A stretch of 64,000 nucleotides of DNA from positions 1,741 through 65,740 of the forward strand of contig JAUYKW010000020.1 of assembly GCA_030698395.1 (NCBI GenBank), in the 5' to 3' direction. This DNA is from a bacterium (lineage in GTDB: Bacteria; Patescibacteriota; Patescibacteriia; UBA9570). Numbering within the stretch: the first letter of the stretch is position 1; the number at the start of each line of letters is the position of its first letter. The position numbers and the translations under genes were made by a program. Below are positions 7,072 to 23,300 of this stretch, piece after piece. Below the pieces are notes generated by a model, which was not told where the DNA came from, searched no databases, and was given only the letters and a program-made list of their open reading frames with translations.

Positions 7072-8179
7072 TCGCTTCCCGTATTTCTGCCATCATTTGC
7101 ACATAAAAACTCAAATTATGAATTGATGTAAGTTTCTTTGCTAAAGGATCGTCTATAGTAAAAAGATGACGAATATAAGCCCGGGAATATCCAGAAGCAC
7201 AAGTATAACATTCACAAAAAGGATCTAAAGCTAATTCTGATAAATCATGTATAGCACCTTTTATTGTAATTTTCTCATAATAAATTTCTGATAAATCCTG
7301 AGCTACTAAACCATCTTGTTGAGTTCGTATATATACTTGGCCATGGCGAGCATTCCTAGTTGGTAAAACACAATCAAACATGTCTACACCCCTTTTTACA
7401 GCTTCTAAGACCTGCTCTGGTTGACCAACACCCATCAGATATCTTGGTTTATTGGTTGGTAACTCAGGAACCACATTATCTAAAACTTCATACATAATTT
7501 CTGGCGGTTCTCCAACCGCAAGGCCTCCAATTGCATAACCATCAAAATCAACTGCCAACAATTGTTGAGCACTACTTTTACGTAAATCTTTATAACTTGA
7601 TCCCTGGACGATTCCAAAGAGCAAAGACCTCACGGATTTGGATCGTTTCTGCATCACCATATCGTGCCATTGTTTACATCGTAATGCCCAAGCCGTTGTT
7701 AAATATACTGATTTTTTTGCAACATCATAGTCTGCAGGATAGCCAGGAAAATAATCAAAACACATCCTAATATCAGAACCTATAGCATCTTGAATTTCCA
7801 TAGACAACTCTGGAGTAAAAAAAGTTTCTTTACCATCAATGTGAGAATTAAAAACAACACCATCATCAGTTAACTTACGCAATCGTGCCAAACTAAATAC
7901 TTGAAAACCACCGGAATCTGTCAAAATGGGTTTTTGCCAATTCATCAACTTATGTAAATGTCCAAATGAGTTTAATTTTTCAATACCAGGACGTAAATAC
8001 AAATGGTATGCATTTGATAGTAATATCTGATTTCCAAGTTGTTTAAAATCTGAATTATCTAAATACTTTACAGCACCTTTAGTAGCTATCGGCATAAAAA
8101 AAGGTGTTTCAATATCACCGTGTGCAGTACGCAAAGTTCCTCTCCTGGCACCTCCCAGTTCGGCTTTTAAATTAAACAT
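7058..8179 (-). CDS. tgt: queuine tRNA-ribosyltransferase
   Basis: MFNLKAELGGARRGTLRTAHGDIETPFFMP N-terminus, VLPTRNARHGQ, and zinc-site Cys/His at the C-terminus (CECYTC...H). Confidence 0.9.
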   Translation of the reverse strand: MFNLKAELGGARRGTLRTAHGDIETPFFMPIATKGAVKYLDNSDFKQLGNQILLSNAYHLYLRPGIEKLNSFGHLHKLMNWQKPILTDSGGFQVFSLARLRKLTDDGVVFNSHIDGKETFFTPELSMEIQDAIGSDIRMCFDYFPGYPADYDVAKKSVYLTTAWALRCKQWHDMVMQKRSKSVRSLLFGIVQGSSYKDLRKSSAQQLLAVDFDGYAIGGLAVGEPPEIMYEVLDNVVPELPTNKPRYLMGVGQPEQVLEAVKRGVDMFDCVLPTRNARHGQVYIRTQQDGLVAQDLSEIYYEKITIKGAIHDLSELALDPFCECYTCASGYSRAYIRHLFTIDDPLAKKLTSIHNLSFYVQMMAEIREAIDYA

Positions 8180-8184
8180 GACGT

Positions 8185-10275: not shown

Positions 10276-10282
10276 GCAGAAA

Positions 10283-10912
10283 TTATACTAAAAATTTCTC
10301 CGCCTGTATATGGCCAGAAGCATGATCATATAGCCAATTCTGGATGACATGTAACAACTTGTTCCACTGCTCCTGATTTACGCGTAATTTTTGAACATCT
10401 TCAAAAGACATGGTCTGTAGCCAAAGAATGACTTTTTTTGTGTCTACATCTTTAGTTTGAGCAGCCAAATCGTACCCTAATATTCTGGCACTTTTTATAA
10501 CAAAACTATACAATACTGTTCTTTGTGCAGAATTATGATTTTGCCATGACAAAGTACTATATAGCAACTTATACAGTTCTGGTTCTGGAGAATCTTCCTT
10601 AGTTATATTACTTACGACTTCACTAATAAATGCAGCCGCGTTCAATCGTCCAATGTCATTATGAATGTTTCGAAAAGCATCTTTCACTACTGCTCCACCA
10701 ATTTTATTAATCAGCTTACTTTCAATCACAAACAACTCAACTTCAGCGTAGGGCTCTAAAGATCCTGCTAACTTTGCTTTAATCTTCTTAATACCATGAG
10801 CTCTTAGTAATTGTTTACCAAAAAGTTCAGTATAAATTGTATAAAGTCTATCAGCTTCTTTAAATGGTGTATAAAAAAGGACAATGCCTTTAGTATTCCA
10901 CGTGTTAGTCAT
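10283..10912 (-). CDS. recO: DNA repair protein RecO
   Basis: N-terminal OB-fold pattern GIVLFYTPFKEADRLYTIYT typical of RecO. Size 209 aa. 8-bp overlap with ileS. Confidence 0.6.
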   Translation of the reverse strand: MTNTWNTKGIVLFYTPFKEADRLYTIYTELFGKQLLRAHGIKKIKAKLAGSLEPYAEVELFVIESKLINKIGGAVVKDAFRNIHNDIGRLNAAAFISEVVSNITKEDSPEPELYKLLYSTLSWQNHNSAQRTVLYSFVIKSARILGYDLAAQTKDVDTKKVILWLQTMSFEDVQKLRVNQEQWNKLLHVIQNWLYDHASGHIQAEKFLV

Positions 10913-13742
10913 TAACGGTTAAAGTAATGCTTAAAGCAATACCATTAACTTTCAGCTCTACCTCTCCATCTCCTTCAGAGAAAGAACTTGCCAAGACGCT
11001 TTTCTGCAAATCCTCTGACAGCTCTGTAATTACAGATTTCAACAAAGCATCATCAGTTTTGTATTCCACAACTACTTGATCATTGATAGTTAACTTTTGC
11101 TTTTTTCGTAATGCATTAATTGAACGTACTAACTCCCGAAATAATCCTTCTTTTGCCAACTCCTCTGTAATTTCAACATTCAAATCAAAATACTGTCCAT
11201 CTTTTACATTTTTTACATTAACTTCTCCGGCCAATACTTCTTTTAATCCATCAGCTAACTTATCTACACCAGGAATACTTACCCAAGCCAAAGGCTGGCG
11301 AACTTTAATTCCTGCTTCCTCTCGAGATGCCAAAGTTTTTTCTACATATTGTCGCAACGCATCCATATCCGTTAAAAGTTGTTCATTCTCATGTGCTGTA
11401 TTAGATTCTGGCCATGTATCTAAATGAACTGAATCTAAAGGACCGCTCATATCTAGATAAATACGTTCACTAATAAACGGTGTAAATGGTGCTAGCAATT
11501 TAACAGTAGTGAGCAATACATAACGCAATGTAGAAAGAGCAGCTTTCTTTTCTTCATCATTACCTTTAAAGCGATCTCGACTTCTTCTTAAATACCAAGT
11601 TGATATTTGTTGTACAAGCTCTTCTAGCTGACGCGTTACTGGCAAAAGTTCGTATTTTTCCATAGCATCAGTTATTTCTATAACTGATTTATTTAAATAC
11701 GCCAATATCCATTTGTCCATTACATGTTCGCTGTCTGGTTGTTCATTAACATCTTGGCCATCTGCAAACATAGCGTAAAAAGTATGAACGTTCCACAATG
11801 TCATTATTAATCGCTTCATTACTTGATCTACACCTTGCTCTGAGAATCTTAAGTTTTCTGCATTTACTACTGGTGAATTCATCAAATAAAATCGCAATGC
11901 ATCTGCACCATACTTTTCCATTACAATGTTCGGTTCCGGATAGTTCTTCAAGCGCTTGCTCATTTTCTTTCCATCTTCAGCCAGTACCAATCCATTCACA
12001 ATTACATTCTTAAAAGCAGGTTTATCAAACAAAGCCGTACTCAGCACAATTAATGTATAGAACCATCCACGAGTTTGATCCAAACCTTCGGCGATAAACT
12101 GTGCCGGAAATGTAGCTTCGTATTTTTCTTTATTCTCGAATGGATAATGTTCCTGAGCATAAGGCATAGACCCAGACTCAAACCAACAATCTAACACCTG
12201 CGGTACTCGATGATATTCTTTGCCATCCTTATTAATCACAACTTTATCAACGTGTTGTTTGTGTAAATCATCTACTTCTACGCCAGATAGTTCCTTTAAT
12301 TCTGCAATACTACTAACACAAATTGTATCACCGTCTGCTGATTGCCAAACTGGTAAAGGTGCCCCCCAATAACGATCACGCGAAATTGCCCAATCTTTAG
12401 CACCTTCTAGCCATTTACCAAATCTTCCCTCTTTAATATGATCCGGCACCCACAATATTTCTTTATTGTGCTTTATCATTCTCTCTTTTAAATCTGTAAC
12501 TTTTACAAACCATGATGCTGTTGCATAATTCAATAATGGAGTATCACAACGCCAACAATGTGGATAGCTATGCAAATATGTACTCTCCCAAAAAAGTCCT
12601 CCGGTTTCTTGTAGATACTTCACAATTTTTTGATCACTCGCCATATGATTGTCTGTAGGCTTTACATCTTCACCTGCAAAATCAGTTACCGCTGAAATGT
12701 ATTTACCATCCGTTCCCACATGTTGAATTAAAGGAATGTTTTTCTCTATTGATAACTGGTAATCATCCTCACCATAACCACTGGCAATATGTACAATGCC
12801 AGTACCCTCATCAGTAGTAACAAAATCCGCCTCCCAAATTGTAAACATATTTTCTGAACCATCCATATCTCCTCCAATAAAATATGGAAATAATGGTTGA
12901 TATTTTTTACCAATTAATTCTGTATTAGCTACAGCCTCTTCAATAGTATGCTCAACATCCGAAAAAACTTCCGCCACTCTTTCCCTTGCTAAAATGAATC
13001 GTTTATCATTTGAAGATACTTGAACATAATCAACATCTGGGCCAATTGCCAATCCCACGTTGCCAGGTAACGTCCAAGGTGTAGTAGTCCAAGCTAATAA
13101 ATATGTATCTTCTTCATCTTGTAGTTTGAACTGCGCAGTTACAGATTGGTCTGTTATATCTTTATAGCCTAAAGTAACTTCAAAATTAGAAAGCGTTGTC
13201 TCGCAACGAGGACAAAGATGCATTGCCTTCTTGCCCTCATAAATTAATCCTTGATCGTAAAGATTTTTAAAAGCCCACCAAATAGATTCTGTATATGATG
13301 TATCCATAGTGCGATAATCATTATCCATGTCAACCCATCTCCCGAGACGTTCTATAACAATCTGCCACTCCTTAGCATATTTAAGCACACTCGCCTGGCA
13401 AGCATCATTAAACTTATCTACACCAATAGCTTCAATATCTTGCTTGGTTTCTAATCCTAATTCTTTTTCGATTAAATTTTCAATTGGCAAGCCATGACAA
13501 TCCCAACCCCAACGTCGTTCTACACGATGTCCGCGCATAGTTGCATAACGTGGAATCACATCTTTTAATGTTGAAGCAACAATGTGTCCGTAATGTGGCA
13601 ATCCAGTAGCAAAAGGAGGTCCATCATAAAAAACAAACTGTTTATCTTCTGGTCGTTCTTCTACAGAACGTTCAAATATTTTTTCTTTCTTCCAATGTTC
13701 AACGAGCGCTTGCTCCATTTCTGAAAAATTCGTTCTTGCCAT
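10905..13742 (-). CDS. ileS: isoleucine--tRNA ligase (type 2)
   Basis: HIGH-class motif PPFATGLPHYGH, GWDCHGLPIE, KMSKRLKNYP (KMSKS); 945 aa. Confidence 0.9.
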   Translation of the reverse strand: MARTNFSEMEQALVEHWKKEKIFERSVEERPEDKQFVFYDGPPFATGLPHYGHIVASTLKDVIPRYATMRGHRVERRWGWDCHGLPIENLIEKELGLETKQDIEAIGVDKFNDACQASVLKYAKEWQIVIERLGRWVDMDNDYRTMDTSYTESIWWAFKNLYDQGLIYEGKKAMHLCPRCETTLSNFEVTLGYKDITDQSVTAQFKLQDEEDTYLLAWTTTPWTLPGNVGLAIGPDVDYVQVSSNDKRFILARERVAEVFSDVEHTIEEAVANTELIGKKYQPLFPYFIGGDMDGSENMFTIWEADFVTTDEGTGIVHIASGYGEDDYQLSIEKNIPLIQHVGTDGKYISAVTDFAGEDVKPTDNHMASDQKIVKYLQETGGLFWESTYLHSYPHCWRCDTPLLNYATASWFVKVTDLKERMIKHNKEILWVPDHIKEGRFGKWLEGAKDWAISRDRYWGAPLPVWQSADGDTICVSSIAELKELSGVEVDDLHKQHVDKVVINKDGKEYHRVPQVLDCWFESGSMPYAQEHYPFENKEKYEATFPAQFIAEGLDQTRGWFYTLIVLSTALFDKPAFKNVIVNGLVLAEDGKKMSKRLKNYPEPNIVMEKYGADALRFYLMNSPVVNAENLRFSEQGVDQVMKRLIMTLWNVHTFYAMFADGQDVNEQPDSEHVMDKWILAYLNKSVIEITDAMEKYELLPVTRQLEELVQQISTWYLRRSRDRFKGNDEEKKAALSTLRYVLLTTVKLLAPFTPFISERIYLDMSGPLDSVHLDTWPESNTAHENEQLLTDMDALRQYVEKTLASREEAGIKVRQPLAWVSIPGVDKLADGLKEVLAGEVNVKNVKDGQYFDLNVEITEELAKEGLFRELVRSINALRKKQKLTINDQVVVEYKTDDALLKSVITELSEDLQKSVLASSFSEGDGEVELKVNGIALSITLTVND

Positions 13743-13774
13743 AAATACTTCTATTTAAATTTTATTAATAAAAA

Positions 13775-13990
13775 AAGTGACTTCACAGAGGGCCCATCAA
13801 CTTTCTGGGCGGTACCACCTCTTATTATCACTTCATTTCAGCGCTTACGGGCTTACCCGGCTTAGTCTATTTTTCTTCAATATTTTAAATAATTTTGAAG
13901 AATTTCTTTAGGCTACCTGTTGAATAAATTATTCAACTCCCCTACTGATAACAGAGTTTAGGTATTTATAGTTGTTACTGTAAATTGTAC
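13775..13990 (-). promoter_or_regulatory. candidate T-box leader (Ile) upstream of ileS
   Basis: Minus-strand AAGAGGUGGUACCGCCC (plus 13807-13825) resembles T-box core AGGGUGGNACCGCG; a U-run (plus 13772-13778) lies about 30 nt before the ileS ATG; candidate specifier GUUAUCAG and possible promoter TTTACA-N17-TACAAT at about 14010-13982 are further upstream on the minus strand. Confidence 0.45.
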
Positions 13991-14028
13991 ACGTGATTGT
14001 ACCAAAAAAAGCTACTTTTGTAAAGGTT

Positions 14029-14565
14029 CTATTTATCTTCAGTTTCTATCCTAAATCTTTTATATACCAAGGCAGCTAAATTATCTGGGATAAAATTATC
14101 AATATTTCTAGTACTAAAATGAAACGTTATTCTTTCCTTACCATTTTGAGGTAGAACCACATAGCAACAAAGATCACCAGAAACACAGGATGAATGTACA
14201 CCCATTTTTACTCCTCTCAATTGTTCTTCGTTTCTATCTTGCACTAACATTGAAATCGAATCCAGCATTTCCTCCACGCTTACTGGGGAGCTATGGAATT
14301 TTTGACCGGGCTCTGAATCTAAAACCCGAGCAATTCTTTCATCATCTTCATTAAGCTCTGCTGGAATAACATCTTCTCCACCTTCTGCTCCATAAGGAAT
14401 ACCTAATTCTTCTTCAGCATGCGTTAACAAAGATGCATCTTGCATCTTTAGTAAGTTATCCCAATAACTAGGATCTAGTTCATAATCACTCCTGCCCCTG
14501 TCTTGGGGCGGTAGCTTTGATCTATCTATCTTTCCTCTTGGCTTAATATCTTTTGGTTCTCCCAT
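14029..14565 (-). CDS. hypothetical protein
   Basis: 178-aa ORF co-oriented with neighbours, no recognisable domain. Confidence 0.4.
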   Translation of the reverse strand: MGEPKDIKPRGKIDRSKLPPQDRGRSDYELDPSYWDNLLKMQDASLLTHAEEELGIPYGAEGGEDVIPAELNEDDERIARVLDSEPGQKFHSSPVSVEEMLDSISMLVQDRNEEQLRGVKMGVHSSCVSGDLCCYVVLPQNGKERITFHFSTRNIDNFIPDNLAALVYKRFRIETEDK

Positions 14566-14637
14566 AAAATTTTATTATCTAATTCTAAATCTATTATAAC
14601 AATTTTGATAAGACTATCAAATGATTTGGAAATGAAG

Positions 14638-14932
14638 AAGGCCTGATAAGTGACGATCTTCAGCAACGCAAGCGTTACATTAGATACTACTTATCAGGCC
14701 TTACTTCCAGGGAGTTTCATGCCCCAAGAAATACGTATTATTTTACTCAGTTCCGCGTCCAGAACTGTTTTTACCCTCTTATGATGAAGAGCGCGGGGTT
14801 CTGTTAACAGAACCCCATTGCCGATTCTTGCCGAAGCAAGTTTACCGGTTAGCAATGCATGAGCGGGTCATCGCTGCTAGGCTCACCGCACATCAGGTAG
14901 ACAGACTACCCATCTCAGAGATGCCGCTCTGA
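14638..14932. repeat. cluster of perfect inverted repeats (hairpins) at the low-GC / high-GC boundary
   Basis: 14-bp arms AAGGCCTGATAAGT (14638-14651) / ACTTATCAGGCCTT (14689-14702). 22-bp perfect palindrome GGGGTTCTGTTAACAGAACCCC (14795-14816). CTCAGAG-ATGCCG-CTCTGAG (14913-14932). Further stems CTCTT..AAGAG and CAGTTC..GAACTG lie between. Confidence 0.6.
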
Positions 14933-14947
14933 GTTATTTTGTACTTG

Positions 14948-17900
14948 CTATCGACCGCGCTTGGCCTCGATCTGGCGCCGCTGATCCTCGACCCACCGGG
15001 TGGCGAGACGGAACAACCAACGCAGATCTTCGGCTTGAGCTTCCTGCTCGGCGAGGTTGCGAGCCGTCTTGGCCGACCGACTCTTGCTACCCTGGGTCTC
15101 GCTGATGGCGAGATCCAAGGCTGAGAGCTGCTGCTCGACCGCGGTGGCGAACTCACCCACCTGGAGCACCATGCTCTCGAGGCCAACACTGCGCATCTGC
15201 GAGAGATCGTTGAAGCGCTGGTTTGCCATGCGACGGCTACCCTGCACATCCAACTTCATGTTCTCCCACGCGTGCCGTACGGTCTCACCGATCGGCACGA
15301 GCTTGCGGCCAGCACCCGGGTAGGGGTGCATGATGAACTGTTCGCCAGTGCGCCTGATCATGGCGTCCGGCGCCTGATGGGACCAGGGATCGGACTCCAT
15401 GGGATCCTCGGGCAGATCGCTTCCGCAGATCAAAGCCGTGAGGAACGGCCCCATCACCTTGCTCTCCTGCACCTCCACGAGGGTGGGCAGATGAACGAAG
15501 GGGAGGAGGGCCACGGCACGGGAGTTGTCCGCACCGACGAGACGCGTCTCCCAAGTGGACACACCCGAGATCGCGCCAGCCTTCACACCGTACACGACGA
15601 TGACGATGTTGATCTCGTCATCGTGACCGTTGGTCTCGTAGCGGAGCTGCTTCTTGGCCAACTGCTCCCGAAGAACCGGGTGCTGCAGCAAAGCGGGGGG
15701 ACCGCTCATGAAGATGCGCGTGACCGTACGGCCGTTGCACCTGCTACCATTGAAGGACAGGAAGGGATCGGATCGCAAGACCCGCTCCAACTCGTTCAGC
15801 ACGACCGGGTTCCGGCACAGCAGAGTGGCGCGATCCATGGTCGCGTTACCACCGCTGAGGACACCGTTGATGTTGGTGAGGACGTCTCCGCCCTGCGCCA
15901 GCGCCTTGGTGTCGATGTCGGGCAGATTCGCCATGATGGTGTCGAGATCGGCGCCGAGGACCTTGCGGAACCCCGTGCCCTCGACGACCGGTGGCGGCGC
16001 GCTGATGTTCATGTGCGCCGTCTGCTCGATGATCCGGTGAGCCGTGGTGAGAGTACTCGCCACGTTGCGGACGTCACGCTGGGTGGTCCGGACAAAGCCG
16101 TTCCACTGCTCGGCCAGGTGACGCTCGCGGTCCAGCTTCTCGCCGATGATCTGGGATGCGAGCCGAGAGGCATCGCGAGCCAGGCCACCGAGGAAGGCGT
16201 TCCACTGCTCGGCCAAGATGAACTCGCAGCGGGCCTTGTAGTGGGCCATGACGCGACCGATGAGGTCACTCGCGTGCTCCTGAGAGCTGATGTCCAGTTC
16301 CGCCTTGCCCTTGATCCGCTCCCACATCGTGGGCTTGCGGTCCTCGTGCTTGACAGCGGTCTCCATACGAAGAGCAACGTCGCTCAGGTCCCCAACGATG
16401 TCGAGAACCGGATTGACGATCTGCTCCAACCGGAGGATCTCCTGAGACAGTTCCACTGAAAACGGCTGCAAGTTGCGCTTGCCGTGATCCTGGACGAACC
16501 GCTGGATGGCGGACTGGGGCGCACTGCGCTGACCACCGAAGAAGGTAATCAAGCCGTCCCGGTAAGAGTCCATGTTGTGTTCCAACTCGCTCAACACCCG
16601 CGTGACCACGCTGGTGCCGGAGGAGCGGACATCATCCGGATCGAGGCTCAGCCGAGGCCGAGTCACGGTCACCTGGTCGAAGCCGATCGGCAGGATCTGC
16701 TCGGCCAGGTTGCGGATGTCGTCCACGGACACGTTGGGGCGACCACTGCTGTCCGTCTCCGCCAGCTGGAGGCCAGCGGACCAGGAGCTGAGGCCGGAGG
16801 ACATGCTGGCAAGATTGAAGTCACCCGCGTTGTCCTGAATCCAGACTTCGATCATCTGGACCGTCTGCACAGTGGGCAGGCTGGCACCGCCGGCGAACTC
16901 CTCCATGGTAATGGGGAGCAGCTGGTCGGTGAGGCCGGTCACCATGTAGTTGGGAATGGCCGGGAGACCGAGGAAAGCATGCGCCGTGCGGTGACGCATG
17001 ACATCAGCCTCGAGCTGGCTGGTATCGGCGAGCTGGAAGCGGTAGGCTCCCACACCCGTGACACAGCGCAGCGGGTCGTCCATGACGATGTTGCCAAGCA
17101 CGTCGACCTCCTCATCCGCGATGGCCTTCCCGATGACCGGGTTGGCATCAAGGACGAGGTACGTGCCGAGCTGGTCCAGGACCTGCTCGAGGCTGATGTT
17201 GCCCTTGGCCGAACGGCTGCTGATCGTCGTGATCTTGTGCAGGAAACCCGGGGGCACCGAGACATCCATGCGATCACCACCCTCCGGGAAGGTCATGGTC
17301 ATGCCCTCGCGCTGGGCCTGCATGATCTCGCGCAGGGTGAAGACAGCGTTCCGCTCCACCTGAGCGCGCAAGCTGGCAGCCACGTTGTAGCAGTCCGGAA
17401 GTACGAGAACCACGCGGATCTCGAGCCGCACGAGGCTGGCATCGAAGTTGGCGTGGAAGGCATCGTGGGCCAGCATGGCGGCACGAAGGATGTTCGCGGA
17501 ACCAGTGCCACCCGAGGCACCGCAGACCAAGTTGATGGACAAGACGGCGTGATCGCAGTCTTCCACCAAGCGCACCTGGTCCATCGCGGTCTCGAGGGCA
17601 CTCCGGATCTCGAAGCCCTTCTCGTGACCAGCCGCGGAACCGATGATGCGCTGCTTGGCGGCGCCCGAGGCCACGTTGGCCGGGAGCGGCATGATGAACA
17701 TGCCATCGAGGACAGCACTGTGCTCGTCCTGCCACACGGAGAGGTCAGATCCGGTCAGACGCACGATGGTGAGCTGGTCGTCGAGCGCGTCGAGGTCGAT
17801 CTCGATCGAGAAGGCGTCGTCGTCGCTGGCGCCCTGCTCGGTCTTGGGGCTGTCGGTATCGATCAGGATCGTACGGAAGTGCTTGGCACCGGCTTCCTGG

Positions 17901-17995
17901 AGAACCTGGTGAGACAGCATCACGATGAAGCTGCCAAGGCCACCAAGGCCAATGTTGATGCGGGGAGAGGGAGAGAGAGAGCGGCTGATAGTCAT
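14948..17995 (-). CDS. tubulin/FtsZ-superfamily GTPase-like protein with ~800-aa C-terminal extension (high-GC island gene)
   Basis: N-terminus INIGLGGLGSFIV (T1 glycine loop) and about 145 aa later LVCGASGGTGSANILRAAML (tubulin signature [SAG]GGTG[SA]G). SD-like AAAGGA before the ATG. GC about 65%, GC3-rich codons. Surrounding plus-strand ORFs are antisense artefacts. Confidence 0.55.
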   Translation of the reverse strand: MTISRSLSPSPRINIGLGGLGSFIVMLSHQVLQEAGAKHFRTILIDTDSPKTEQGASDDDAFSIEIDLDALDDQLTIVRLTGSDLSVWQDEHSAVLDGMFIMPLPANVASGAAKQRIIGSAAGHEKGFEIRSALETAMDQVRLVEDCDHAVLSINLVCGASGGTGSANILRAAMLAHDAFHANFDASLVRLEIRVVLVLPDCYNVAASLRAQVERNAVFTLREIMQAQREGMTMTFPEGGDRMDVSVPPGFLHKITTISSRSAKGNISLEQVLDQLGTYLVLDANPVIGKAIADEEVDVLGNIVMDDPLRCVTGVGAYRFQLADTSQLEADVMRHRTAHAFLGLPAIPNYMVTGLTDQLLPITMEEFAGGASLPTVQTVQMIEVWIQDNAGDFNLASMSSGLSSWSAGLQLAETDSSGRPNVSVDDIRNLAEQILPIGFDQVTVTRPRLSLDPDDVRSSGTSVVTRVLSELEHNMDSYRDGLITFFGGQRSAPQSAIQRFVQDHGKRNLQPFSVELSQEILRLEQIVNPVLDIVGDLSDVALRMETAVKHEDRKPTMWERIKGKAELDISSQEHASDLIGRVMAHYKARCEFILAEQWNAFLGGLARDASRLASQIIGEKLDRERHLAEQWNGFVRTTQRDVRNVASTLTTAHRIIEQTAHMNISAPPPVVEGTGFRKVLGADLDTIMANLPDIDTKALAQGGDVLTNINGVLSGGNATMDRATLLCRNPVVLNELERVLRSDPFLSFNGSRCNGRTVTRIFMSGPPALLQHPVLREQLAKKQLRYETNGHDDEINIVIVVYGVKAGAISGVSTWETRLVGADNSRAVALLPFVHLPTLVEVQESKVMGPFLTALICGSDLPEDPMESDPWSHQAPDAMIRRTGEQFIMHPYPGAGRKLVPIGETVRHAWENMKLDVQGSRRMANQRFNDLSQMRSVGLESMVLQVGEFATAVEQQLSALDLAISETQGSKSRSAKTARNLAEQEAQAEDLRWLFRLATRWVEDQRRQIEAKRGR

Positions 17996-18100
17996 GGTAT
18001 GTTATCCTTTGATCCCGCACCGGATTCTTATACCGGGAGTATTGGGATCGTATGAGGGGCTGTGTTGGAGGTTGAAGAAGGAAAGACCGAACCGTTGATA

Positions 18101-19741
18101 CTATCGCAGGCCCATGCAACGGAAGGTGAAGAAGACTGAGCCGTCATCGGCCAGCACCTCAGCTCCGTCCACCATTTTCACGGGGATGTTCGGTGCAACG
18201 TAGCGCTCCGCGCCAGCCACCCGAACCCGAACTGTGTCTGTCGTCAGGATGTTGATCCGTGACTGCTTCTTCTTGCCGGTAGCCCGGAAGGTGAAACCGT
18301 CGATGATCTGTTCCTGCTGATCCGTCTTGAGTCGGATCACGGATCCATCAGGGAATTCCAACCGCCCCTTGAGCAAAGGCTTGTTGAGTTCCTTCTGCCG
18401 CGGCCGCACCACCAGGCGGTAGTACAACACGCAGAGCAGGAACAACAACAGAACCGTGCTCGGCAGGGTGTGCTTCCAGTTCTCCATGTACCAACCACGA
18501 CGCTTGACGGACACCGGTACAACGACCGGGTCCAGCGCCACAGTAGCGGGAGCCTGGAAGGTTAGCTGACCTTCGTACGAACCGGGCGGAGCCGAGTCCA
18601 GGGTGAAGCGGATATCGACGCCATGCTGGTTGGGAACCGCGATGGTGTCGGGCGTCACCGTAATGTGGACATCGTCGGGCAGGCCGACCAGATTCACCTC
18701 CACCTGCTTGGCTTCGGCGACTGTGTCGTCTGCTTCGAACTTGACGTGGACCGAACCGGTCTCTCCGGGTCGCAATGCACCCACGTTGATGGACTCCTGG
18801 GACAGCCGCACACGCAGCATGTCCTTAGTGAAGTTCACCTCAAGGGTGGGAGTGACCACGGCGAGGTTGCCGGTGGCTCGAAAGATGATCTTTCCGCCGT
18901 AGGTACCGGGTTCCAGATCATTAGCCAGCCGAATTTGACAGCGCAGATCTCCCGGAGCCGTGAACAGATCGCAGTCCAGTTCAACACCTTCAGGGAAGTT
19001 CCCCTCTGGCGTGAGCTGAATGCTCGAGCTGGCGCCCGTGACTGAAAAGCTCGTGCGAATCTCCGCACTGCCTCCCAGCTTCAGGTTGCCGAGCTCGAAG
19101 CTCTGCTGATCCGCCGCGACGAAAACGCGGATACCGGATCGGATCCTCTCACCGATGACCGCCAGGCTGTCGACCGTAGCGTCGTGGACGGTAGCGCCGA
19201 GACGCGTACCGACCTTGTCCACTGTGGGCTTGCTAACAGCAGTGAGAGCGACCACGTGAATGGCCACACCGTCACAGGCAGCATCGAGATCGTCCCAGCG
19301 GGCGGTCAGGCCACGCGGAATTTCCTCTTTGCCGTCCGTGAGCAGCACGAGCCCCTTAGGTCCTTTCTGTTGCTGCAACACCGTACAGGCATCGAACAGG
19401 CCACCGGAAGTGTAGGTCCAGTTCTGGCTGAAGTCGAAGCCATCCACGATGAAGTGCAGATCTGCCAGGTCATTGGGCCGGTTGGTATCCGAGACGTTGA
19501 TGGGCCGGTCGACCCAGATCTCAGTACCGAACGACGCCATGATGACCCGGTCACCAGTGTAGACCTCGTCCACAAACTCGCCCAGAAAACCCTGGACGGG
19601 AACGACGAGGTGGTTCGACTTCATCGACCCCGAAAGGTCGGTGAGCAAAACCAGGTTGAGGTTAGCGCCCGTAGACGCGTATGCCGTAGCTCCAAGAAGG
19701 AACCACAGCGCGATCAGTAGCATGCTGGTGATCTCACGCAT
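18101..19741 (-). CDS. secreted vWA (MIDAS) domain protein with Ig-like domains, C-terminal TM anchor and ~95-aa cytoplasmic tail (high-GC island gene)
   Basis: Signal peptide MREITSMLLIALWFLLGATAYA, MIDAS DLSGSM then LVLLTDG, two beta-sandwich-like regions, TM LPSTVLLLFLLCVLYY, charged tail. AGGAGG SD 7 nt upstream of the ATG. Confidence 0.7.
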   Translation of the reverse strand: MREITSMLLIALWFLLGATAYASTGANLNLVLLTDLSGSMKSNHLVVPVQGFLGEFVDEVYTGDRVIMASFGTEIWVDRPINVSDTNRPNDLADLHFIVDGFDFSQNWTYTSGGLFDACTVLQQQKGPKGLVLLTDGKEEIPRGLTARWDDLDAACDGVAIHVVALTAVSKPTVDKVGTRLGATVHDATVDSLAVIGERIRSGIRVFVAADQQSFELGNLKLGGSAEIRTSFSVTGASSSIQLTPEGNFPEGVELDCDLFTAPGDLRCQIRLANDLEPGTYGGKIIFRATGNLAVVTPTLEVNFTKDMLRVRLSQESINVGALRPGETGSVHVKFEADDTVAEAKQVEVNLVGLPDDVHITVTPDTIAVPNQHGVDIRFTLDSAPPGSYEGQLTFQAPATVALDPVVVPVSVKRRGWYMENWKHTLPSTVLLLFLLCVLYYRLVVRPRQKELNKPLLKGRLEFPDGSVIRLKTDQQEQIIDGFTFRATGKKKQSRINILTTDTVRVRVAGAERYVAPNIPVKMVDGAEVLADDGSVFFTFRCMGLR

Positions 19742-19785
19742 GTGGATCCTCCTGTCTGAGCAGCTGTGAGTAGTTATTGGGATTT

Positions 19786-19837
19786 GGGTTGGATTTTTAG
19801 AATCAAAAGAATTATCTTAATTCCAAGATTCCAACCC
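19786..19837. repeat. 52-bp hairpin (GGGTTGGA...TCCAACCC with nested GAATTA..TAATTC) at the high-GC island boundary
   Basis: Read directly from sequence. Lies between the DUF167 gene end and the vWA gene start. No flanking U-run on either strand. Confidence 0.5.
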
Positions 19838-20011
19838 AAAAACGACCAACAACTTTACTCTATTTATTATTGATTATTTCTTTATTATCTAACTAAATTG
19901 TCAACGTACATACTATGGTACAAAATCCTTTATCTAGACAAAAAATGCCTAAACAAAGACCAAGCAATGTACATTAAAAAGAAGCTTTTGTCAAGCCCCT
20001 TTAATTTTGAT

Positions 20012-20308
20012 TTATGCTAATGTTAGCAATTTTTTTTCCAGCTCTTTTTGTTCTGATTTACTAACTTGAACAACAATGTTCTTCTCAGGACTACTTTTTC
20101 CAAATTTCACAGAGATATTAGATTTTTTCAGTCCTAACAACTCTGCTAAAAAAGAAATCAACATTGCATTAGCTTTCCCCTGCTCTGGTGGTGCAGCTAC
20201 TTTTATTTTTAATCTGTTTCCTAGTAGGCCAACAATTTCTGTTCGCGATGCTCCAGGAACAACTTTAATTAGAAGTAGTAAGCCTTCATTAATTTCCTTA
20301 AACCACAT
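20012..20308 (-). CDS. DUF167 (YggU-like) family protein
   Basis: RLKIKVAAPPEQGKANAMLISFLAELLG matches the DUF167 core (xxPxxGKAN). Confidence 0.7.
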   Translation of the reverse strand: MWFKEINEGLLLLIKVVPGASRTEIVGLLGNRLKIKVAAPPEQGKANAMLISFLAELLGLKKSNISVKFGKSSPEKNIVVQVSKSEQKELEKKLLTLA

Positions 20309-20320
20309 GACAACTTAATA

Positions 20321-23300
20321 TTATGATCTCAAACCTGCAATAGTAGCATCTAAATTTGCTAAATCAATACTGCTTCCGGAAGCCAAGCCGACAGCTTCAC
20401 GACGTGCCTTTTTAGTTTGAATTGAAGCACCACTATCTGGTAAATCATCTAATTTTTGATCATATTGCATTGCAACCAACTCTAAAAGATCAACACTCGC
20501 TGTATCAAGATCAAGAATTCGTCCACTCAATGCCCTTTTTGCATCAGATCCGTATTTAGCCGCAAATTCATCCAAAACCTGTACGCGTCTAGCTGCAAGT
20601 TCAGCTACTTTTGCTGAATCTATTTCTGGTGTCACAGGAGCGCTACCTTCAGTAGGTGCTACCTCTGTTGGTGCCTCTGCTTCAGCTGGAGCTTCACCAG
20701 GAACCGCCTGTTTTAATAAATCACCAAACTTATCACCAAATGTCGAATTTCCACCTTGATCTGCGTGTACAACTTTTGTTTCAGCTACTGCTGAAGCTGG
20801 TTTAGCTTTTCGAGTTTTAGGAGCTGCTGCCGTTGGAGCTGCTGCCGATGCAGTCTTTGGAGGTTCAGCCGCTGCTGGCGCAGGAGTTGGTATAGTCTTT
20901 GGAGGTTCAGCCGCTGCTGGCGCAGGAGTTGGTATAGTCTTTGGAGGTTCAGCCGCTGCTGGCGCAGGAGTTGGTGCTATATTCTTTTGCTTGGCCTTAT
21001 TTATCACGGAATTATCAAATAGAGGTTGTCCAGTCTTTAGTTTATCTATGAATGCTGGTAACAAAGTTACGTCCACTTCAATTGCATCAGAATCTGGACC
21101 AACTAAACCAAAAGCTTTCAATTTTGTATTTAATGCTCTCTCTCTAAATAATTTCTTATTTTTTATTCTATTATCTACTTCTTGAATTGCATCTGAAAGT
21201 CGCTGAACATAAGTTACTTGCTCAGTCATTGGTTCCATGTTTGTAGCTCGCTCAAAAGCACGAGAAAATTCTTGACCCATGTAAAAATTACCTTTTCTCT
21301 TTTTCCCTTGAGGTCCAACTTCGCCCATTTGATACAGCGTTGAATTTCTCTCAAGCAGATCAATGTCACTCACAGCTTTAATATCTGCTATAAACCTATC
21401 ATTTAATACCTGTTCATTTACCGTGTCATCAGCATTAAGTAATCCCATAGCTTCTAATGCTGCGGATATCCTTCTGTTTGCAGGCGTATCTGCAGGTATC
21501 TCAGTACTAGCATTTAATGAAATTATTCTGTCGGCAAGAGCTTCAGATTGTACTGGACTTAAACCTTTTGCATGAGTTGATAATGCATCTAACAATTCAG
21601 GACTAACGTTACCAAACATGGTCGCAACAGATCTCTCACGATCTTCCCATCTATTACGAGTTCTAGCTTGATTTACTCGATAGAACAAATCTGAACTTTG
21701 TTGATAAAATTGTTTTTCTACTTTCGGACTTGCTTTTAATGTATCAAATACAGAACTTAATGTATCAAATCTTGCATTCCATTCTCCTGTATTAACAGCC
21801 TCCATTCGTTCCGCTCTGTATTTATCAGTATTCCGTAACTCAGCATCTAATGCTTCTTGAGTAAATTTCAATTGAGCTACCAACCATCTATCTGCCGCCC
21901 TACCTAAACCTTCCAAAATGTCAGATACTCTTTTATGTAATCTTGCAGGTTGCTCAGATACTTTAATATTGTCTCTGCCAACTCTAATATCCACATCCTT
22001 CAAATCGTCAGGAATAACAATGGCGTCAACACCTTGTTGAGCTGCACGCACCTGCTCTTTCCAAGCTTTGAGCGCTGTTAATGCATTTCCTAATTCTGCC
22101 GGATCTTGCAATGCAGATTCAATAAAATACATATCTTTTAATCTATCGCGAACTGTAAGTAATTCATCAATTGGCTTTTCAGTTGGATCTATTACTTCTC
22201 TTCTAGCTCTACCAAGTTTATCACGAGCACTTTCTGGTCCTGCTGGTTGGCCTGCAGTAATTGCTGGATCAGGAGTCCCGGCAACTGGTGCTGGTGTAGG
22301 TGTTGCTGTTGGAGGCGTAGGTGTTCCAGTAGGTGCTGCAGGAGTAGCTGGTGCTGGTGGAGTTCCAGTCGGTGTCGTTGGAGCCGGAGTTCCGCCCGCA
22401 GGTGCAGTCGGAGGTGTACCAGTTGTTGGAGGTGTCTCAAATGGATCTGCTTTAGGATCTGCTTTTAATCTGGCAATAACTTCCTGAATACGAACACTAT
22501 TTGGAGTTCCATCACTTGCAGCAAGGCCGGCATTTACAACTGCATCATCAATTGAACCACGTTTTTTTAGTGTATTCCTAAATCTTCGTAAATGTTGTCT
22601 ATCTAATATTCCTTCACTTTCCATTGCATCTAGTATAGCTTCTAGAGTATCTAATTGTTCAGTGAAATATCCTGAGCTCGTCTCTGGAAGAAAACTGTTA
22701 GCAACCACGCTATCAACAGCTGAGATTCGATTACGTAAACGTAATTCATGCTCTGCTTTTGCTTGTGCTTCGGCCTGTTCTTTTAACCGCTGTTGAGCTT
22801 CGGCCTGTTCTCTAGCTTCTCGCGCAGCTTTTTCGGCAGCAGTTTCAACAGGTGCTGTTGTACCGGGTGTAACTGGTGCACCAGTAGGAGGCGTAGGCAC
22901 TCCCGTAGGTGATGTTACTGGAGGAGTTACTGGAGGAGTTACTGGAGTTGGAGCAGGTATTCTTAACTCAACAAGTTTTGCATCCAATAAGTCCCTTACT
23001 GCTAAGTATTCTCCAGTCATCGCCTGATATTTTGCAGCTAGTGCATCATACTCTGCTCTCGGTAAATATGTTGGCGCTTTTCCAAGAGTTTTCAAATCAG
23101 TATATAGCTTAGCAAGTAATTCTCCAAAATCATTACTATTTTTATCTAACATTTGTTGTACTTCAGCTTCTGTAAATGCTGTACCTTTTAGATATGTCTC
23201 AACATCTTTTCTAAATATCGCTTGACCTGTCTTGGCTCTATCGGCATTTTTATTACCACGATCTAATATATTCTTTTCAAGCTCATCGCCAAGATTACTC

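What the first reader, a model, noticed from the sequence alone, without database searches (positions are those of the whole stretch)
14640..19760. High-GC (~62-65%) island in a ~34% GC genome encoding a tubulin/FtsZ-like GTPase paired with a secreted vWA-Ig-TM-tail protein
Within an otherwise collinear AT-rich minus-strand array, base composition jumps abruptly by about 30 GC points over about 5.1 kb. The island carries two co-oriented genes. The 546-aa product has a signal peptide, a vWA MIDAS motif (DLSGSM...LLTDG), two Ig-like regions, one TM helix and a ~95-aa cytoplasmic tail. The 1015-aa product has an N-terminal glycine loop (IGLGGLGS) and, about 145 aa later, GASGGTGSA, matching the tubulin/FtsZ T1 and T4 (GGGTG[ST]G) GTP-binding signatures, followed by ~800 aa of unknown sequence. 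This suggests an outside-in module: an extracellular adhesive/ligand-binding vWA head coupled through a TM anchor to a cytoplasmic polymerising GTPase. From memory, divergent FtsZ-like families linked to membrane-remodelling operons have been described, but I do not recall this exact vWA-Ig-TM + 1000-aa tubulin-like architecture, so it may be an undescribed cytoskeletal/membrane system acquired by horizontal transfer. Alternative: a chimeric metagenome assembly joining a high-GC contaminant.
Basis: partly seen in the sequence, partly recalled or inferred. Interest (0 to 1): 0.9.

Follow-up and report, generated by a model that had tools for sequence, protein, structure and literature searches.

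The report
Mobile high-GC vWA/tubulin-like gene cassette
A 5.4-kb, GC-rich, two-gene mobile cassette sits between housekeeping genes of an AT-rich candidate-phyla-radiation bacterium; it pairs a surface vWA protein with an FtsZ/tubulin-fold GTPase, a pairing described in 2010 but never tested, and what is unusual is that every copy found keeps its foreign base composition.

Summary

An assembly chimera is excluded. A second assembler gives an identical 12.8-kb contig across both junctions. Five other contigs carry the same gene pair as a GC-rich block (GC3 0.70-0.91), and flanks are AT-rich wherever they are present.

The host is a Patescibacteria (CPR) bacterium. A related genome has yggU-ileS-recO contiguous, so the cassette is an insertion.

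The architecture is not new. vWA/FtsZl1 operons were described by Makarova & Koonin in 2010 and reinterpreted as conflict systems by Kaur et al. in 2020.

Three things are new:
- This is a very rare, divergent, minimal two-gene subfamily. Full-length relatives are only its own members among about 15 billion proteins.
- It has a discrete unit structure: a cassette-specific AT-rich promoter/hairpin module, GC-rich genes and a structured 3' tail.
- It sits in non-syntenic sites and shows mosaic recombination.

No high-GC donor is visible. Function is inferred only: surface sensing coupled to cytoplasmic tubulin-like assembly.

The parts
14638..19994 (-). Whole mobile unit (about 5.36 kb): upstream module, vWA gene, tubulin-like gene and structured 3' tail
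   Evidence: The left end is defined by L002 versus L085: identity is 0.07-0.27 before TTGACAAAA and 1.0 after it. The right end is taken as the last hairpin before AT-rich host sequence. L083 is 100% identical to the window across both junctions.
19966..19994 (-). Sigma-70-like promoter P1 (TTGACA-17-TACATT), the start of the conserved module
   Evidence: Promoter scan scores 10/12. TTGACAAAA is invariant in all six cassette loci. The module pattern was found only at cassettes: once in the window, in 0 of 80 control loci and 0 times in IMG/VR.
19927..19959 (-). Conserved hairpin 1, terminator-like, directly after the P1 -10 box
   Evidence: The scan gives 14 pairs followed by ATTTTGT. RNAalifold finds 16 pairs kept in 6 of 6 loci, with compensatory changes at several pairs.
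19897..19904 (-). Second conserved box TTGACAAT, a possible -35; its -10 is unclear
   Evidence: Conserved in 5 of 6 loci, with TTGAAAAT in the sixth. No good -10 hexamer at 16-18 nt in the window (read).
19769..19854 (-). 5' leader stem-loop (core TTGGGTTGGA / TCCAACCCAA)
   Evidence: Inverted repeat I1. The five other loci have a stem at the equivalent place with a different sequence, GAACCAGGG / CCCTGGTTC.
19748..19752 (-). Ribosome-binding site GGAGG, 6 nt before the ATG
   Evidence: Read from the sequence. GGAG is invariant in six loci.
18101..19741 (-). 546-aa protein: signal peptide, extracytoplasmic MIDAS-vWA domain, beta-rich (probably Ig-like) region of about 210 aa, one TM helix and a conserved cytoplasmic tail of about 98 aa
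   Evidence: dN/dS is 0.31-0.56, so the gene is under purifying selection.
17996..18100 (-). 105-nt intergenic spacer between the two genes
   Evidence: Not conserved in sequence among loci.
14948..17995 (-). 1015-aa FtsZl1/Tubulin_2 protein: N-terminal tubulin/FtsZ-fold GTPase domain (residues about 10-295, nt about 17111-17968), then about 700 aa of mostly helical sequence with long predicted helices and a C-terminal alpha/beta part that has no detectable relatives outside the subfamily
14630..14947 (-). Structured 3' tail: a run of about 9 hairpins ending in a perfect 14-bp stem at 14638-14702
   Evidence: MFE -123.3 kcal/mol against -87.1 +/- 5.7 for shuffles, z = -6.4. The perfect 14-nt arms are repeat I17. 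The 3' tails of L001 and L002 are also strongly structured, z = -6.05 and -3.8, but are not alignable.
20012..20308 (-). Host gene yggU (DUF167), the upstream flank of the insertion
   Evidence: PF02594, 79.4 bits. In L010, yggU lies directly upstream of ileS.
10905..13742 (-). Host gene ileS, the downstream flank (with orf178 at 14029-14565 between it and the cassette)

Best explanation
What it is (shown): a horizontally mobile two-gene cassette of about 5.36 kb, inserted between yggU and ileS of a Patescibacteria (CPR) genome. It is a divergent, minimal member of the known vWA/FtsZl1 (Pfam Tubulin_2) gene-pair class.

Gene 1 encodes a membrane-anchored protein. Its MIDAS-vWA domain and a beta-rich region face outward, and a conserved tail of about 98 aa faces the cytoplasm. 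Gene 2 encodes a soluble protein with a genuine tubulin/FtsZ-fold GTPase domain, followed by about 700 aa of mostly helical sequence.

The unit brings its own AT-rich promoter/hairpin module and a structured 3' tail. It sits at unrelated sites in different genomes and recombines with its relatives. Its coding composition (GC3 0.70-0.91, Arg-rich and Lys-poor proteins) reflects long evolution under GC pressure.

Origin (inferred, about 0.55): the cassettes come from an unsampled high-GC lineage or element, entered low-GC genomes fairly recently and more than once, and are only partly ameliorated.

How it works (inferred, not shown): the vWA head binds a ligand at the cell surface through its metal site. 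The signal passes through the single TM helix to the tail. The tail recruits or nucleates GTP-dependent assembly of the tubulin-like protein under the membrane, and that assembly is the output. Because the unit is accessory, mobile, rare and mosaic, I think a role in biological conflict or cell-cell interaction (phage, or the episymbiont's host surface) is more likely (about 0.45) than a housekeeping cytoskeletal role.
For: Fold and family:
- Pfam Tubulin_2 scores 42.2 bits against a gathering score of 27.
- The N-terminal model has pLDDT 80.3 and pTM 0.82.
- All top-50 Foldseek hits are FtsZ or CetZ.
- T1 and T4 glycines are invariant.
- A PDB profile search gives 34 of 37 hits to FtsZ, TubZ, RepX or CetZ.

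Pairing: vWA gene followed by tubulin-like gene in 6 of 6 loci. This pairing is described in the literature.

Not a chimera: L083, from another assembler, is identical over 12,781 nt including both junctions. The same GC step recurs in L001, L002 and L084-L086.

Insertion: L010 has yggU-ileS-recO contiguous. Flanking genes differ among cassette loci. L002 and L085 cassettes are 93% identical, but their flanks are unrelated right up to TTGACAAAA.

Host: ileS is 67% identical to that of a Patescibacteria MAG, and the next hits are ABY1-type CPR lineages. The neighbouring genes are bacterial housekeeping genes.

Foreign composition at synonymous and amino-acid level.

Functional genes: dN/dS is 0.31-0.56.

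Mosaicism: L002 versus L084 is 0.73-1.0 identical through the module and the first ~170 nt of the coding sequence, then 0.37-0.87.

Rarity: the exhaustive HMMER search of 1.84e9 representatives found only subfamily members at full length.
Against: - No donor was found. Every cassette with informative flanks lies in low-GC DNA, and no close homologue occurs in any high-GC genome among about 15 billion proteins. That is awkward for a 'recent import from a high-GC lineage'.
- The AT-rich module travels with the cassette, which would be unusual in a high-GC donor.
- Cassettes differ by dS >= 0.7-1.5 yet all remain GC-rich.
- No mobility gene or terminal repeat was found.
- The hosts of the other five loci were not identified.
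- L083 may derive from the same reads as the MAG.
- FtsZl1 lacks a recognisable T7 loop and C-terminal activation domain, so polymerisation is not assured.
- PADLOC has no match and dN/dS is below 1, so there is no direct sign of a defence role.
- The Ig-like regions, the signal peptide and the tail-to-tubulin contact are predictions only.
Confidence: 0.7

Rival explanations
1. Long-term resident of CPR genomes whose high GC is actively maintained. The cassette has circulated among low-GC Patescibacteria for a long time. Its GC-rich coding composition would be held up by selection (for example on mRNA structure or stability, slow translation of a costly protein, or evasion of AT-directed nucleases or silencing) or by GC-biased gene conversion at a locus that recombines often.
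For: - All informative loci are in low-GC contexts and no high-GC source is visible in about 15 billion proteins.
- The cassette-specific module is AT-rich (32-42% GC) and shared by all six loci.
- Cassettes diverged by dS >= 0.7-1.5 are all still at GC3 0.70-0.91.
- There is evidence of recombination between cassettes.
- The GC step coincides with the coding sequences plus the 3' tail.
Against: - The amino-acid composition is also of the GC type (R/K about 2-3, against 0.6 in host IleRS; GC1 0.58-0.66). Selection on mRNA would not easily produce that.
- Cassette GC3 is lowest where the flanking or host GC is lowest (window, L086), as partial amelioration predicts.
- Polarised third-position changes are 21 GC>AT against 4 AT>GC, although that test is biased by the GC-rich outgroups.
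- A 50-60 point GC3 excess from gene conversion would be unprecedented (my own knowledge).
Confidence: 0.22
2. Membrane-remodelling or attachment cytoskeleton rather than a conflict system. As Makarova & Koonin proposed for vWA/FtsZl1 operons, the pair would build a membrane-associated scaffold. In an episymbiotic CPR cell it could organise the contact site with the host cell, with the vWA/Ig ectodomain acting as the adhesin.
For: - The literature proposal for this family.
- A vWA domain with intact MIDAS and beta-rich ectodomains is typical of adhesins.
- CPR bacteria live attached to other cells (established knowledge; context).
- Purifying selection.
- No match to catalogued defence systems.
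Against: Only about 6-7 instances exist among about 15 billion proteins. They have a patchy, non-syntenic, mobile distribution and a mosaic structure. This fits an accessory trait and not a core cell-biological device. dN/dS of 0.3-0.56 is relaxed for a structural machine. The two readings are not mutually exclusive.
Confidence: 0.3
3. Assembly or binning artefact: a high-GC contaminant fragment joined to an AT-rich CPR contig.
For: An abrupt GC step of about 27 points. Only one MAG record carries this exact sequence.
Against: - An independent Logan assembly of run SRR13727534 is 100% identical over window 8101-20881, spanning both junctions.
- Five further contigs from other samples show the same GC-rich genes joined to the same AT-rich module, and three of them (L001, L002, L084) extend into AT-rich host genes.
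- The junctions fall in regulatory DNA with promoter, RBS and terminators in the correct order.
Confidence: 0.01

Closest known systems
vWA/FtsZl1 operons (FtsZ-like 1 family = Pfam PF13809 Tubulin_2), Makarova & Koonin 2010, Biol Direct 5:33
   Same: - A tubulin/FtsZ-superfamily GTPase with conserved T1 and T4 loops and family-specific inserts between them.
- Alignable only as far as about helix H5, with a long C-terminal region unrelated to FtsZ_C or Tubulin_C and containing long helices.
- An adjacent vWA gene with intact MIDAS, signal peptide and TM segment.
- Sparse, HGT-like distribution alongside a presumably normal FtsZ.
   Different: - Only two genes: no OmpA-like protein, Ser/Thr kinase, extra GTPase or other accessory genes.
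- The C-terminal ~780 aa have no detectable homologue outside the subfamily.
- Found in a CPR/Patescibacteria genome.
- Packaged as a discrete mobile unit with its own conserved promoter/hairpin module and anomalous GC.
GAP1-N2-type GTPase-centric conflict systems with tubulin and vWA components (Kaur, Burroughs, Iyer & Aravind 2020, eLife 9:e52696)
   Same: The actinobacterial version has one tubulin fused to an uncharacterised C-terminal alpha-helical domain, plus a membrane-bound vWA protein with a beta-strand-rich domain. The firmicute version has a TM-anchored vWA in an extracellular position. Both have a membrane-proximal, sensor-like layout.
   Different: The defining GAP1-N2 protein and its partner GTPase(s), and the FNIII/HRDC components, are absent from the cassette and from its neighbourhood.
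Canonical tubulin-superfamily polymers (FtsZ, CetZ, TubZ/PhuZ, BtubA/B, tubulins)
   Different: Sequence identity is 11-21%. There is an extra ~55 aa between T1 and T4. No recognisable T7 catalytic loop or C-terminal activation domain. A ~700-aa extension follows. Polymerisation is unproven.
MoxR-vWA threat-sensing pathways (Kaur et al. 2020; experimentally supported Esr pathway in Actinomycetales, bioRxiv 10.64898/2026.09.08.750141)
   Same: Use of a vWA domain in a sensing or thresholding pathway linked to biological conflict, in one case involving Patescibacteria epibionts.
   Different: There is no MoxR AAA+ ATPase, kinase/phosphatase pair or FHA protein here. The NTPase is a tubulin-fold GTPase, and the vWA domain is extracytoplasmic.

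Membership tests
Tubulin/FtsZ superfamily | Rossmann-type GTPase-domain fold of tubulin/FtsZ | tested here: met
Tubulin/FtsZ superfamily | T1 glycine loop (GxGGxG) and T4 signature (GGGTG[ST]G-like) | tested here: met
   IGLGGLGS has G18, G19 and G21. GASGGTGSA has G162, G163, T164 and G165. These are invariant or nearly invariant in 27 Tubulin_2 relatives and align to the FtsZ T1 and T4 loops in the PDB profile hits.
Tubulin/FtsZ superfamily | T7 'synergy' loop and C-terminal activation domain needed for polymerisation-coupled GTP hydrolysis | tested here: inconclusive
   No conserved NxDxxD/E-like motif was identified after residue ~230 in A5. Makarova & Koonin likewise could not identify T6-H7 in FtsZl1. 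The model beyond residue ~295 has low confidence.
Tubulin/FtsZ superfamily | GTP binding and hydrolysis, and filament formation | not testable with these tools
   Needs biochemistry and EM.
FtsZl1 / Pfam PF13809 Tubulin_2 | Match to the family HMM above the gathering threshold | tested here: met
   42.2 bits against 27, residues 14-234. The precomputed PF13809 assignment is also present on P0001-P0004.
FtsZl1 / Pfam PF13809 Tubulin_2 | Long C-terminal region that is not FtsZ_C or Tubulin_C and contains coiled-coil-like helices | tested here: met
   There is no Pfam hit beyond residue 234. The low-confidence model predicts helices at 453-504, 571-664 and 937-1014. The coiled-coil character itself was not scored.
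FtsZl1 / Pfam PF13809 Tubulin_2 | Adjacent gene for a vWA protein with intact MIDAS | tested here: met
   6 of 6 loci. D35, S37, S39, T111 and D136 are invariant.
GAP1-N2 GTPase-centric conflict system (Kaur et al. 2020) | GAP1-N2 protein and associated TRAFAC GTPase(s) in the neighbourhood | tested here: not met
   The cassette has only two genes. The flanking genes are yggU, orf178, ileS and recO, plus a 2223-aa repeat protein. The L001 flanks also lack them.
GAP1-N2 GTPase-centric conflict system (Kaur et al. 2020) | A tubulin with a C-terminal helical domain plus a membrane-bound, extracellular vWA protein | tested here: met
MoxR-vWA ternary systems | MoxR-type AAA+ ATPase next to the vWA gene | tested here: not met
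   There is no AAA+ gene in or beside the cassette. The ClpB-like and MgsA AAA+ genes in the window lie more than 10 kb away and are housekeeping genes.
Catalogued anti-phage defence systems (PADLOC-DB v2) | Match of either protein to a defence-system HMM | tested here: not met
   0 families at E <= 1 for both proteins.
Self-mobile element (IS, transposon, integrative element, integron cassette) | Own recombinase or transposase, terminal inverted or direct repeats, or an attC/att site | tested here: not met
   The unit has only two ORFs, neither of them a recombinase. No significant terminal repeats were found; the 13-nt inverted match I23 is within chance. There is no tRNA in the window. attC-like core sites were checked only by eye.

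The most novel reading that the evidence does not exclude
The cassettes could represent a new kind of recombinase-less mobile unit that circulates among CPR bacteria. It would be delimited by a conserved AT-rich promoter/hairpin module and a structured 3' tail, and its GC-rich coding composition would be actively maintained and not inherited from a donor. Its cargo would be a minimal two-protein 'outside-in' immune or contact sensor, in which an extracellular vWA receptor directly triggers cytoplasmic assembly of a tubulin-fold GTPase.
Probability: 0.15. Interest if true: 0.8.

Novelty: new variant of a known kind. Interest (0 to 1): 0.55.

Why it matters
FtsZl1/Tubulin_2 proteins are the most divergent branch of the tubulin superfamily. 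Their pairing with vWA proteins has been known since 2010, but no function has ever been tested. This subfamily reduces the system to two genes with their own promoter, which makes it a compact construct for asking whether a surface vWA receptor can drive assembly of a tubulin-fold GTPase.

It also places the system in CPR bacteria, whose cell biology and interactions with hosts and phages are poorly known.

Separately, a cassette that stays at GC3 0.7-0.9 in genomes of GC3 0.2-0.4, across copies diverged to saturation and with no visible donor, is a clean test case for how fast foreign DNA ameliorates in CPR genomes, or whether composition can be maintained. The GC-rich antisense ORFs also misled an automatic gene caller, so such genes are probably under-counted in protein catalogues.

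Tried and rejected
- Full-length AF2 with the three-sequence alignment gave pLDDT 43 and was unusable for fold search.
- A PDB sequence search with the three-sequence profile found nothing relevant.
- NCBIfam and PADLOC gave no hits.
- Pattern-based scans for relatives confirmed none: GTDB genomes, JGI metagenomes with the tubulin and vWA alignments, and IMG/VR with both alignments and with the module DNA pattern.
- The afdb50 fold library was unavailable.
- Rfam has no family for the upstream module or the 3' tail in the window or in five other loci.
- My first module pattern had a spacing error and found nothing.
- The 3' tails of the three loci do not align.
- The neighbourhood of the nearest outgroup I was allowed to look up (P0004, Panacagrimonas) was uninformative: no vWA hit among its neighbours.
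- The polarised substitution test for amelioration (21 GC>AT against 4 AT>GC) is biased because the outgroups are GC-rich and near saturation, so I do not rely on it.
- Strong diversifying selection is rejected: dN/dS is 0.31-0.56.
- 'High GC caused by amino-acid composition alone' is rejected: the excess is largest at third codon positions.
- The long antisense ORFs (523, 395 and 178 aa on the + strand) are by-products of GC-rich sequence and not genes. They have no family support, while the sense ORFs have Pfam, homologue and structural support.
- An integron-cassette or DGR origin was considered. There is no integrase, reverse transcriptase or recognisable attC, and the cassette carries its own promoter.
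- orf178 is not part of the cassette: its composition is host-like, it has its own promoter and it is absent from other cassette loci.
- An empty-site comparison with the closest relative (L003) was impossible because that contig ends 222 nt upstream of ileS.

Full report
1. OBSERVATION

The compositional island is real and sharply bounded. In 400-nt windows, GC climbs from 0.33-0.39 to 0.55-0.66 between about 14700 and 19750, then returns to 0.31-0.38. The window without the island is 35.4% GC, and the two coding sequences are 61.6%.

The difference lies mainly at synonymous sites. GC3 is 0.74 for the vWA gene and 0.83 for the tubulin-like gene, against 0.20-0.26 for seven host genes. It also shows in amino-acid usage: R/K is about 1.5-2.9 in the cassette proteins and 0.6 in IleRS.

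As a control I used 50 low-GC loci fetched through IleRS, about 0.7 Mb in total. Their largest 1-kb GC excess over the locus median is 0.02-0.11, with one exception. Here it is about 0.27.

The long plus-strand ORFs inside the island (523, 395 and 178 aa) are the stop-poor antisense frames expected in GC-rich DNA.

2. THE TWO PROTEINS

The 546-aa protein:
- It matches Pfam VWA above threshold (29.7 bits against 23.8).
- All six homologues match (best 2.9e-13).
- The MIDAS residues D35, S37, S39, T111 and D136 are invariant.
- The best solved relative is the vWA domain of inter-alpha-trypsin inhibitor H1 (1.2e-5).
- Hydropathy shows an N-terminal signal-like segment and a single TM helix at about 425-448. 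A K/R-rich stretch and a conserved tail of about 98 aa follow.
- Residues about 205-415 give only sub-threshold hits to Ig-like families (HYDIN/VesB Ig 0.0047, NPCBM_assoc 0.0058, DUF1573, Big_5). 'Two Ig-like domains' is therefore plausible but not shown.

The 1015-aa protein:
- It matches Pfam Tubulin_2 (PF13809) above threshold: 42.2 bits against 27, residues 14-234.
- The three-sequence alignment gave a useless full-length model (pLDDT 43).
- I therefore aligned residues 1-330 with 26 relatives, most of them distant Tubulin_2 proteins found by the exhaustive search (A5). G18, G19 and G21 (T1) and G162, G163 and G165 (T4) are invariant, together with D46 and G111. T47, A112, R116, T164, P200, N216 and E223 are nearly invariant.
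- With that alignment AlphaFold gave pLDDT 80.3 and pTM 0.82.
- Foldseek against the PDB returns only FtsZ or CetZ in the top 50 (E 2.5e-7 to 1.4e-5, probability 1.0).
- A sequence profile of A5 against PDB sequences gives 34 of 37 weak hits to FtsZ, TubZ, RepX or CetZ, aligned on T1 and T4 (best E 0.0011).

The T7 loop and the C-terminal activation domain could not be identified. The remaining ~700 aa are predicted, at low confidence, to be mostly long helices plus a C-terminal alpha/beta part.

3. NOT A CHIMERA; A RECURRENT CASSETTE

Homology searches found very few relatives. For the tubulin-like protein there were three sequences in the word-indexed search of 5.8e9 clusters. In the exhaustive HMMER search of 1.84e9 representatives of about 15e9 proteins, the only full-length hits were the window protein itself and P0002, plus a 68-aa C-terminal fragment. 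All 41 other hits (E 5e-9 to 1e-3) match only the N-terminal ~230 residues. The vWA partner search added three more loci.

That gives six loci: the window (identical to L083), L001, L002, L084, L085 and L086. In every one the vWA gene is followed by an ORF that opens with the T1 loop. In every one the coding block is GC-rich, with GC3 0.70-0.91, and flanks are AT-rich wherever they are present.

L083 is a Logan assembly of run SRR13727534. It is 100% identical to window 8101-20881, so it spans both junctions. Logan's gene caller picked the antisense ORFs in place of the tubulin-like gene there, which explains why the protein itself was 'not on record'.

4. HOST AND INSERTION SITE

The neighbouring genes are ordinary bacterial housekeeping genes: a ClpB-like gene, tgt, recO, ileS, argS, mgsA and dinB. 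IleRS is 67% identical to that of a 'Patescibacteria group' MAG. The next hits are Magasanik-, Gribaldo-, Falkow-, Uhr-, Kerfeld- and Komeilibacteria. The host is therefore a CPR bacterium.

In the Kerfeldbacteria locus L010, yggU, ileS and recO are contiguous and co-oriented, with about 130 nt between yggU and ileS. In the window, the cassette plus a host-composition orphan (orf178) occupies that gap.

The flanking genes of L001, L002 and L084 are different and unrelated.

5. ANATOMY OF THE UNIT

All six loci share an AT-rich (32-42% GC) upstream module of about 250 nt. In order, it contains:
- a near-consensus promoter, TTGACAAAA-N14-TAnAtT (P1; window 19994-19966);
- directly after it, a 13-16-bp hairpin followed by a T-rich run (window 19959-19927). 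It is kept in 6 of 6 loci, with compensatory changes at several pairs;
- a second conserved TTGACAAT box;
- a long leader stem-loop. Its stem is GAACCAGGG/CCCTGGTTC in five loci and TTGGGTTGGA/TCCAACCCAA in the window;
- GGAG(G) and the ATG.

The module pattern occurs once in the window and once in each cassette locus. It occurs in none of the 80 control loci and not at all in IMG/VR. No Rfam family matches it.

Downstream of the tubulin-like gene, all three loci that reach that far have an unusually structured tail (z = -6.4, -6.05 and -3.8 against shuffles). The tails are not alignable.

The left end of the unit is sharp. L002 and L085 are 93% identical through the cassette but unrelated immediately upstream of TTGACAAAA. 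No recombinase, terminal repeat or adjacent tRNA was found, so the means of movement is unknown. Transformation followed by recombination is a guess.

6. EVOLUTIONARY SIGNALS

- The vWA proteins are 46-56% identical between lineages, and 91% for L002/L085.
- dN/dS is 0.31 for the closest pair (dS 0.167) and 0.39-0.56 for deeper pairs (dS >= 0.7-1.5, probably underestimated). That means functional genes under moderately relaxed purifying selection, without strong diversifying selection.
- Between L002 and L084 the module is 90% identical, while third codon positions are only 57% identical.
- A sliding comparison shows that the high-identity tract continues about 170 nt into the GC-rich coding sequence before identity falls. 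Mosaic recombination between cassettes explains this better than selection on non-coding DNA alone.

7. WHERE DOES THE GC COME FROM?

The GC-type amino-acid usage implies long evolution under GC pressure. The simplest reading is origin in a high-GC lineage or element, with fairly recent and repeated entry into low-GC genomes and partial amelioration. Consistent with that, cassette GC3 is lowest (0.70-0.83) where the flanking DNA is most AT-rich.

There are three points against this reading:
- No high-GC carrier is visible in about 15 billion proteins.
- The AT-rich module always travels with the genes.
- Copies that differ by dS >= 0.7-1.5 are all still GC-rich.

A rough calculation from the L002/L085 differences makes it hard, though not impossible, for all of that divergence to have happened inside AT-rich hosts. 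I assumed equilibrium GC3 of about 0.3 and used the 46 strong/weak third-position differences. On those assumptions, a drop from about 0.95 to about 0.65-0.8 is expected over dS 0.7-1.5.

I therefore rate 'import from an unsampled GC-rich source' at about 0.55, 'maintained GC in CPR residents' at about 0.2-0.25, and the rest as open. The polarised substitution count (21 GC>AT against 4 AT>GC) points to amelioration. It is biased by the GC-rich outgroups, so I do not rely on it.

8. FUNCTION AND MECHANISM (INFERENCE)

What is shown:
- the topology of the vWA protein: vWA and beta-rich parts outside, tail inside;
- the tubulin-fold GTPase domain with intact nucleotide-binding loops;
- strict co-occurrence of the two genes behind a shared promoter module;
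- purifying selection.

What is inferred: ligand binding at the MIDAS site is relayed to the cytoplasmic tail, which recruits or nucleates assembly of the tubulin-like protein under the membrane.

Makarova & Koonin proposed membrane remodelling for vWA/FtsZl1 operons. They noted that FtsZl1 may polymerise by a novel mechanism or not at all. Kaur et al. placed tubulin/vWA neighbourhoods among GTPase-centric conflict systems that intercept invaders at the membrane. A related MoxR-vWA pathway now has experimental support as a threat sensor in Actinobacteria attacked by Patescibacteria.

Because this unit is rare, mobile, mosaic and inserted among housekeeping genes, I favour a conflict or cell-interaction role (about 0.45) over a housekeeping scaffold (about 0.3). 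Nothing here tests that. PADLOC has no match.

9. COMPARISON WITH WHAT IS KNOWN

The pair meets the tested defining features of FtsZl1/Tubulin_2: HMM above threshold, T1 and T4 loops, inserts between them, a non-FtsZ C-terminal region, and an adjacent MIDAS-vWA gene. It should be filed there.

It is not a GAP1-N2 system, because it has no GAP1 protein or partner GTPase. It is not a MoxR-vWA system, because it has no MoxR.

It differs from described FtsZl1 operons in four ways:
- it is reduced to two genes;
- its C-terminal ~780 aa have no relatives outside the subfamily;
- it occurs in a CPR genome;
- it is packaged as a discrete, compositionally foreign mobile unit.

I found no paper reporting tubulin-like/vWA pairs in Patescibacteria, and none testing them functionally.

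10. VERDICT

The chimera alternative is refuted. This is a new variant of a known but experimentally untouched kind of system, with an unexplained compositional and mobility pattern. Interest is 0.55.

Main caveats:
- The hosts of the other five loci were not identified.
- L083 may share reads with the MAG.
- There is no structure for the C-terminal 700 aa or for the vWA protein.
- Function is entirely inferred.

Noticed in passing
L010:7550-9809 (Candidatus Kerfeldbacteria scaffold PFGC01000018.1): Another ABY1-type CPR genome ends in a 55-66% GC block within a 41-45% GC contig. It carries two unrelated minus-strand ORFs (314 aa and 341 aa, the latter with a masked run of N). High-GC islands with other cargo may therefore be a wider feature of these genomes.
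   Followed up: partly
window 13785-13933 (-): A weak T-box leader match (31 bits against a gathering score of 93, E 4.8e-4) lies directly upstream of ileS, between orf178 and ileS.
   Followed up: no
L083:2827-5610 (= window 15272-18055, + strand): In the Logan record the automatic gene caller called the two antisense ORFs (523 and 395 aa) in place of the 1015-aa tubulin-like gene. The protein is therefore missing from that catalogue. GC-rich genes in AT-rich contigs may be systematically mis-called and under-counted.
   Followed up: partly
window 20321-26992 (-), repeats at 20852-20975 and 22914-22947: The 2223-aa neighbouring protein is rich in Pro/Thr/Ala tracts. It contains a perfect 42-nt x 3 tandem repeat (the 14-aa unit PTPAPAAAEPPKTI) and a 12-nt x 2.8 repeat. 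These tracts produce local GC bumps of 0.45-0.50.
   Followed up: partly
window 14029-14565 (-): orf178 has host-like composition (GC3 0.25) and its own strong promoter-like site (TTGATA-16-TATAAT at 14620-14593). It has no Pfam family above threshold and no relative in any fetched locus. It lies between the cassette and ileS, and is absent from the yggU-ileS gap of L010.
   Followed up: partly
L003 (Patescibacteria SO_2017_GW1_34, contig JBAZWO010000002.1): The contig of the closest relative (IleRS 67% identical) ends 222 nt upstream of ileS, which is where the cassette sits in the window. An empty-site or occupied-site comparison was therefore not possible. The break could itself reflect an assembly problem at a compositional step.
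   Followed up: no
L004, L006, L012-L014, L019-L021, L028: Several MAGs titled 'uncultured Gammaproteobacteria bacterium' (binchicken/SRP co-assemblies) have IleRS 50-58% identical to this CPR protein and 33-43% GC. They rank among named Patescibacteria, so the organism labels look like placeholders or misassignments.
   Followed up: no
L037-L039, L044, L046, L051, L052, L062, L077 (Acidimicrobiia loci): yggU also lies next to ileS in these high-GC actinobacterial genomes, but on the opposite strand. The yggU-ileS neighbourhood is therefore widespread beyond CPR.
   Followed up: no
L001:8698-8769 (-) and 11495-11566 (+): Two tRNA genes flank the region downstream of the L001 cassette. The nearer one is about 1 kb beyond the cassette's 3' end, past a convergent LTD-domain gene, so it is not adjacent enough to suggest tRNA-targeted integration.
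   Followed up: no
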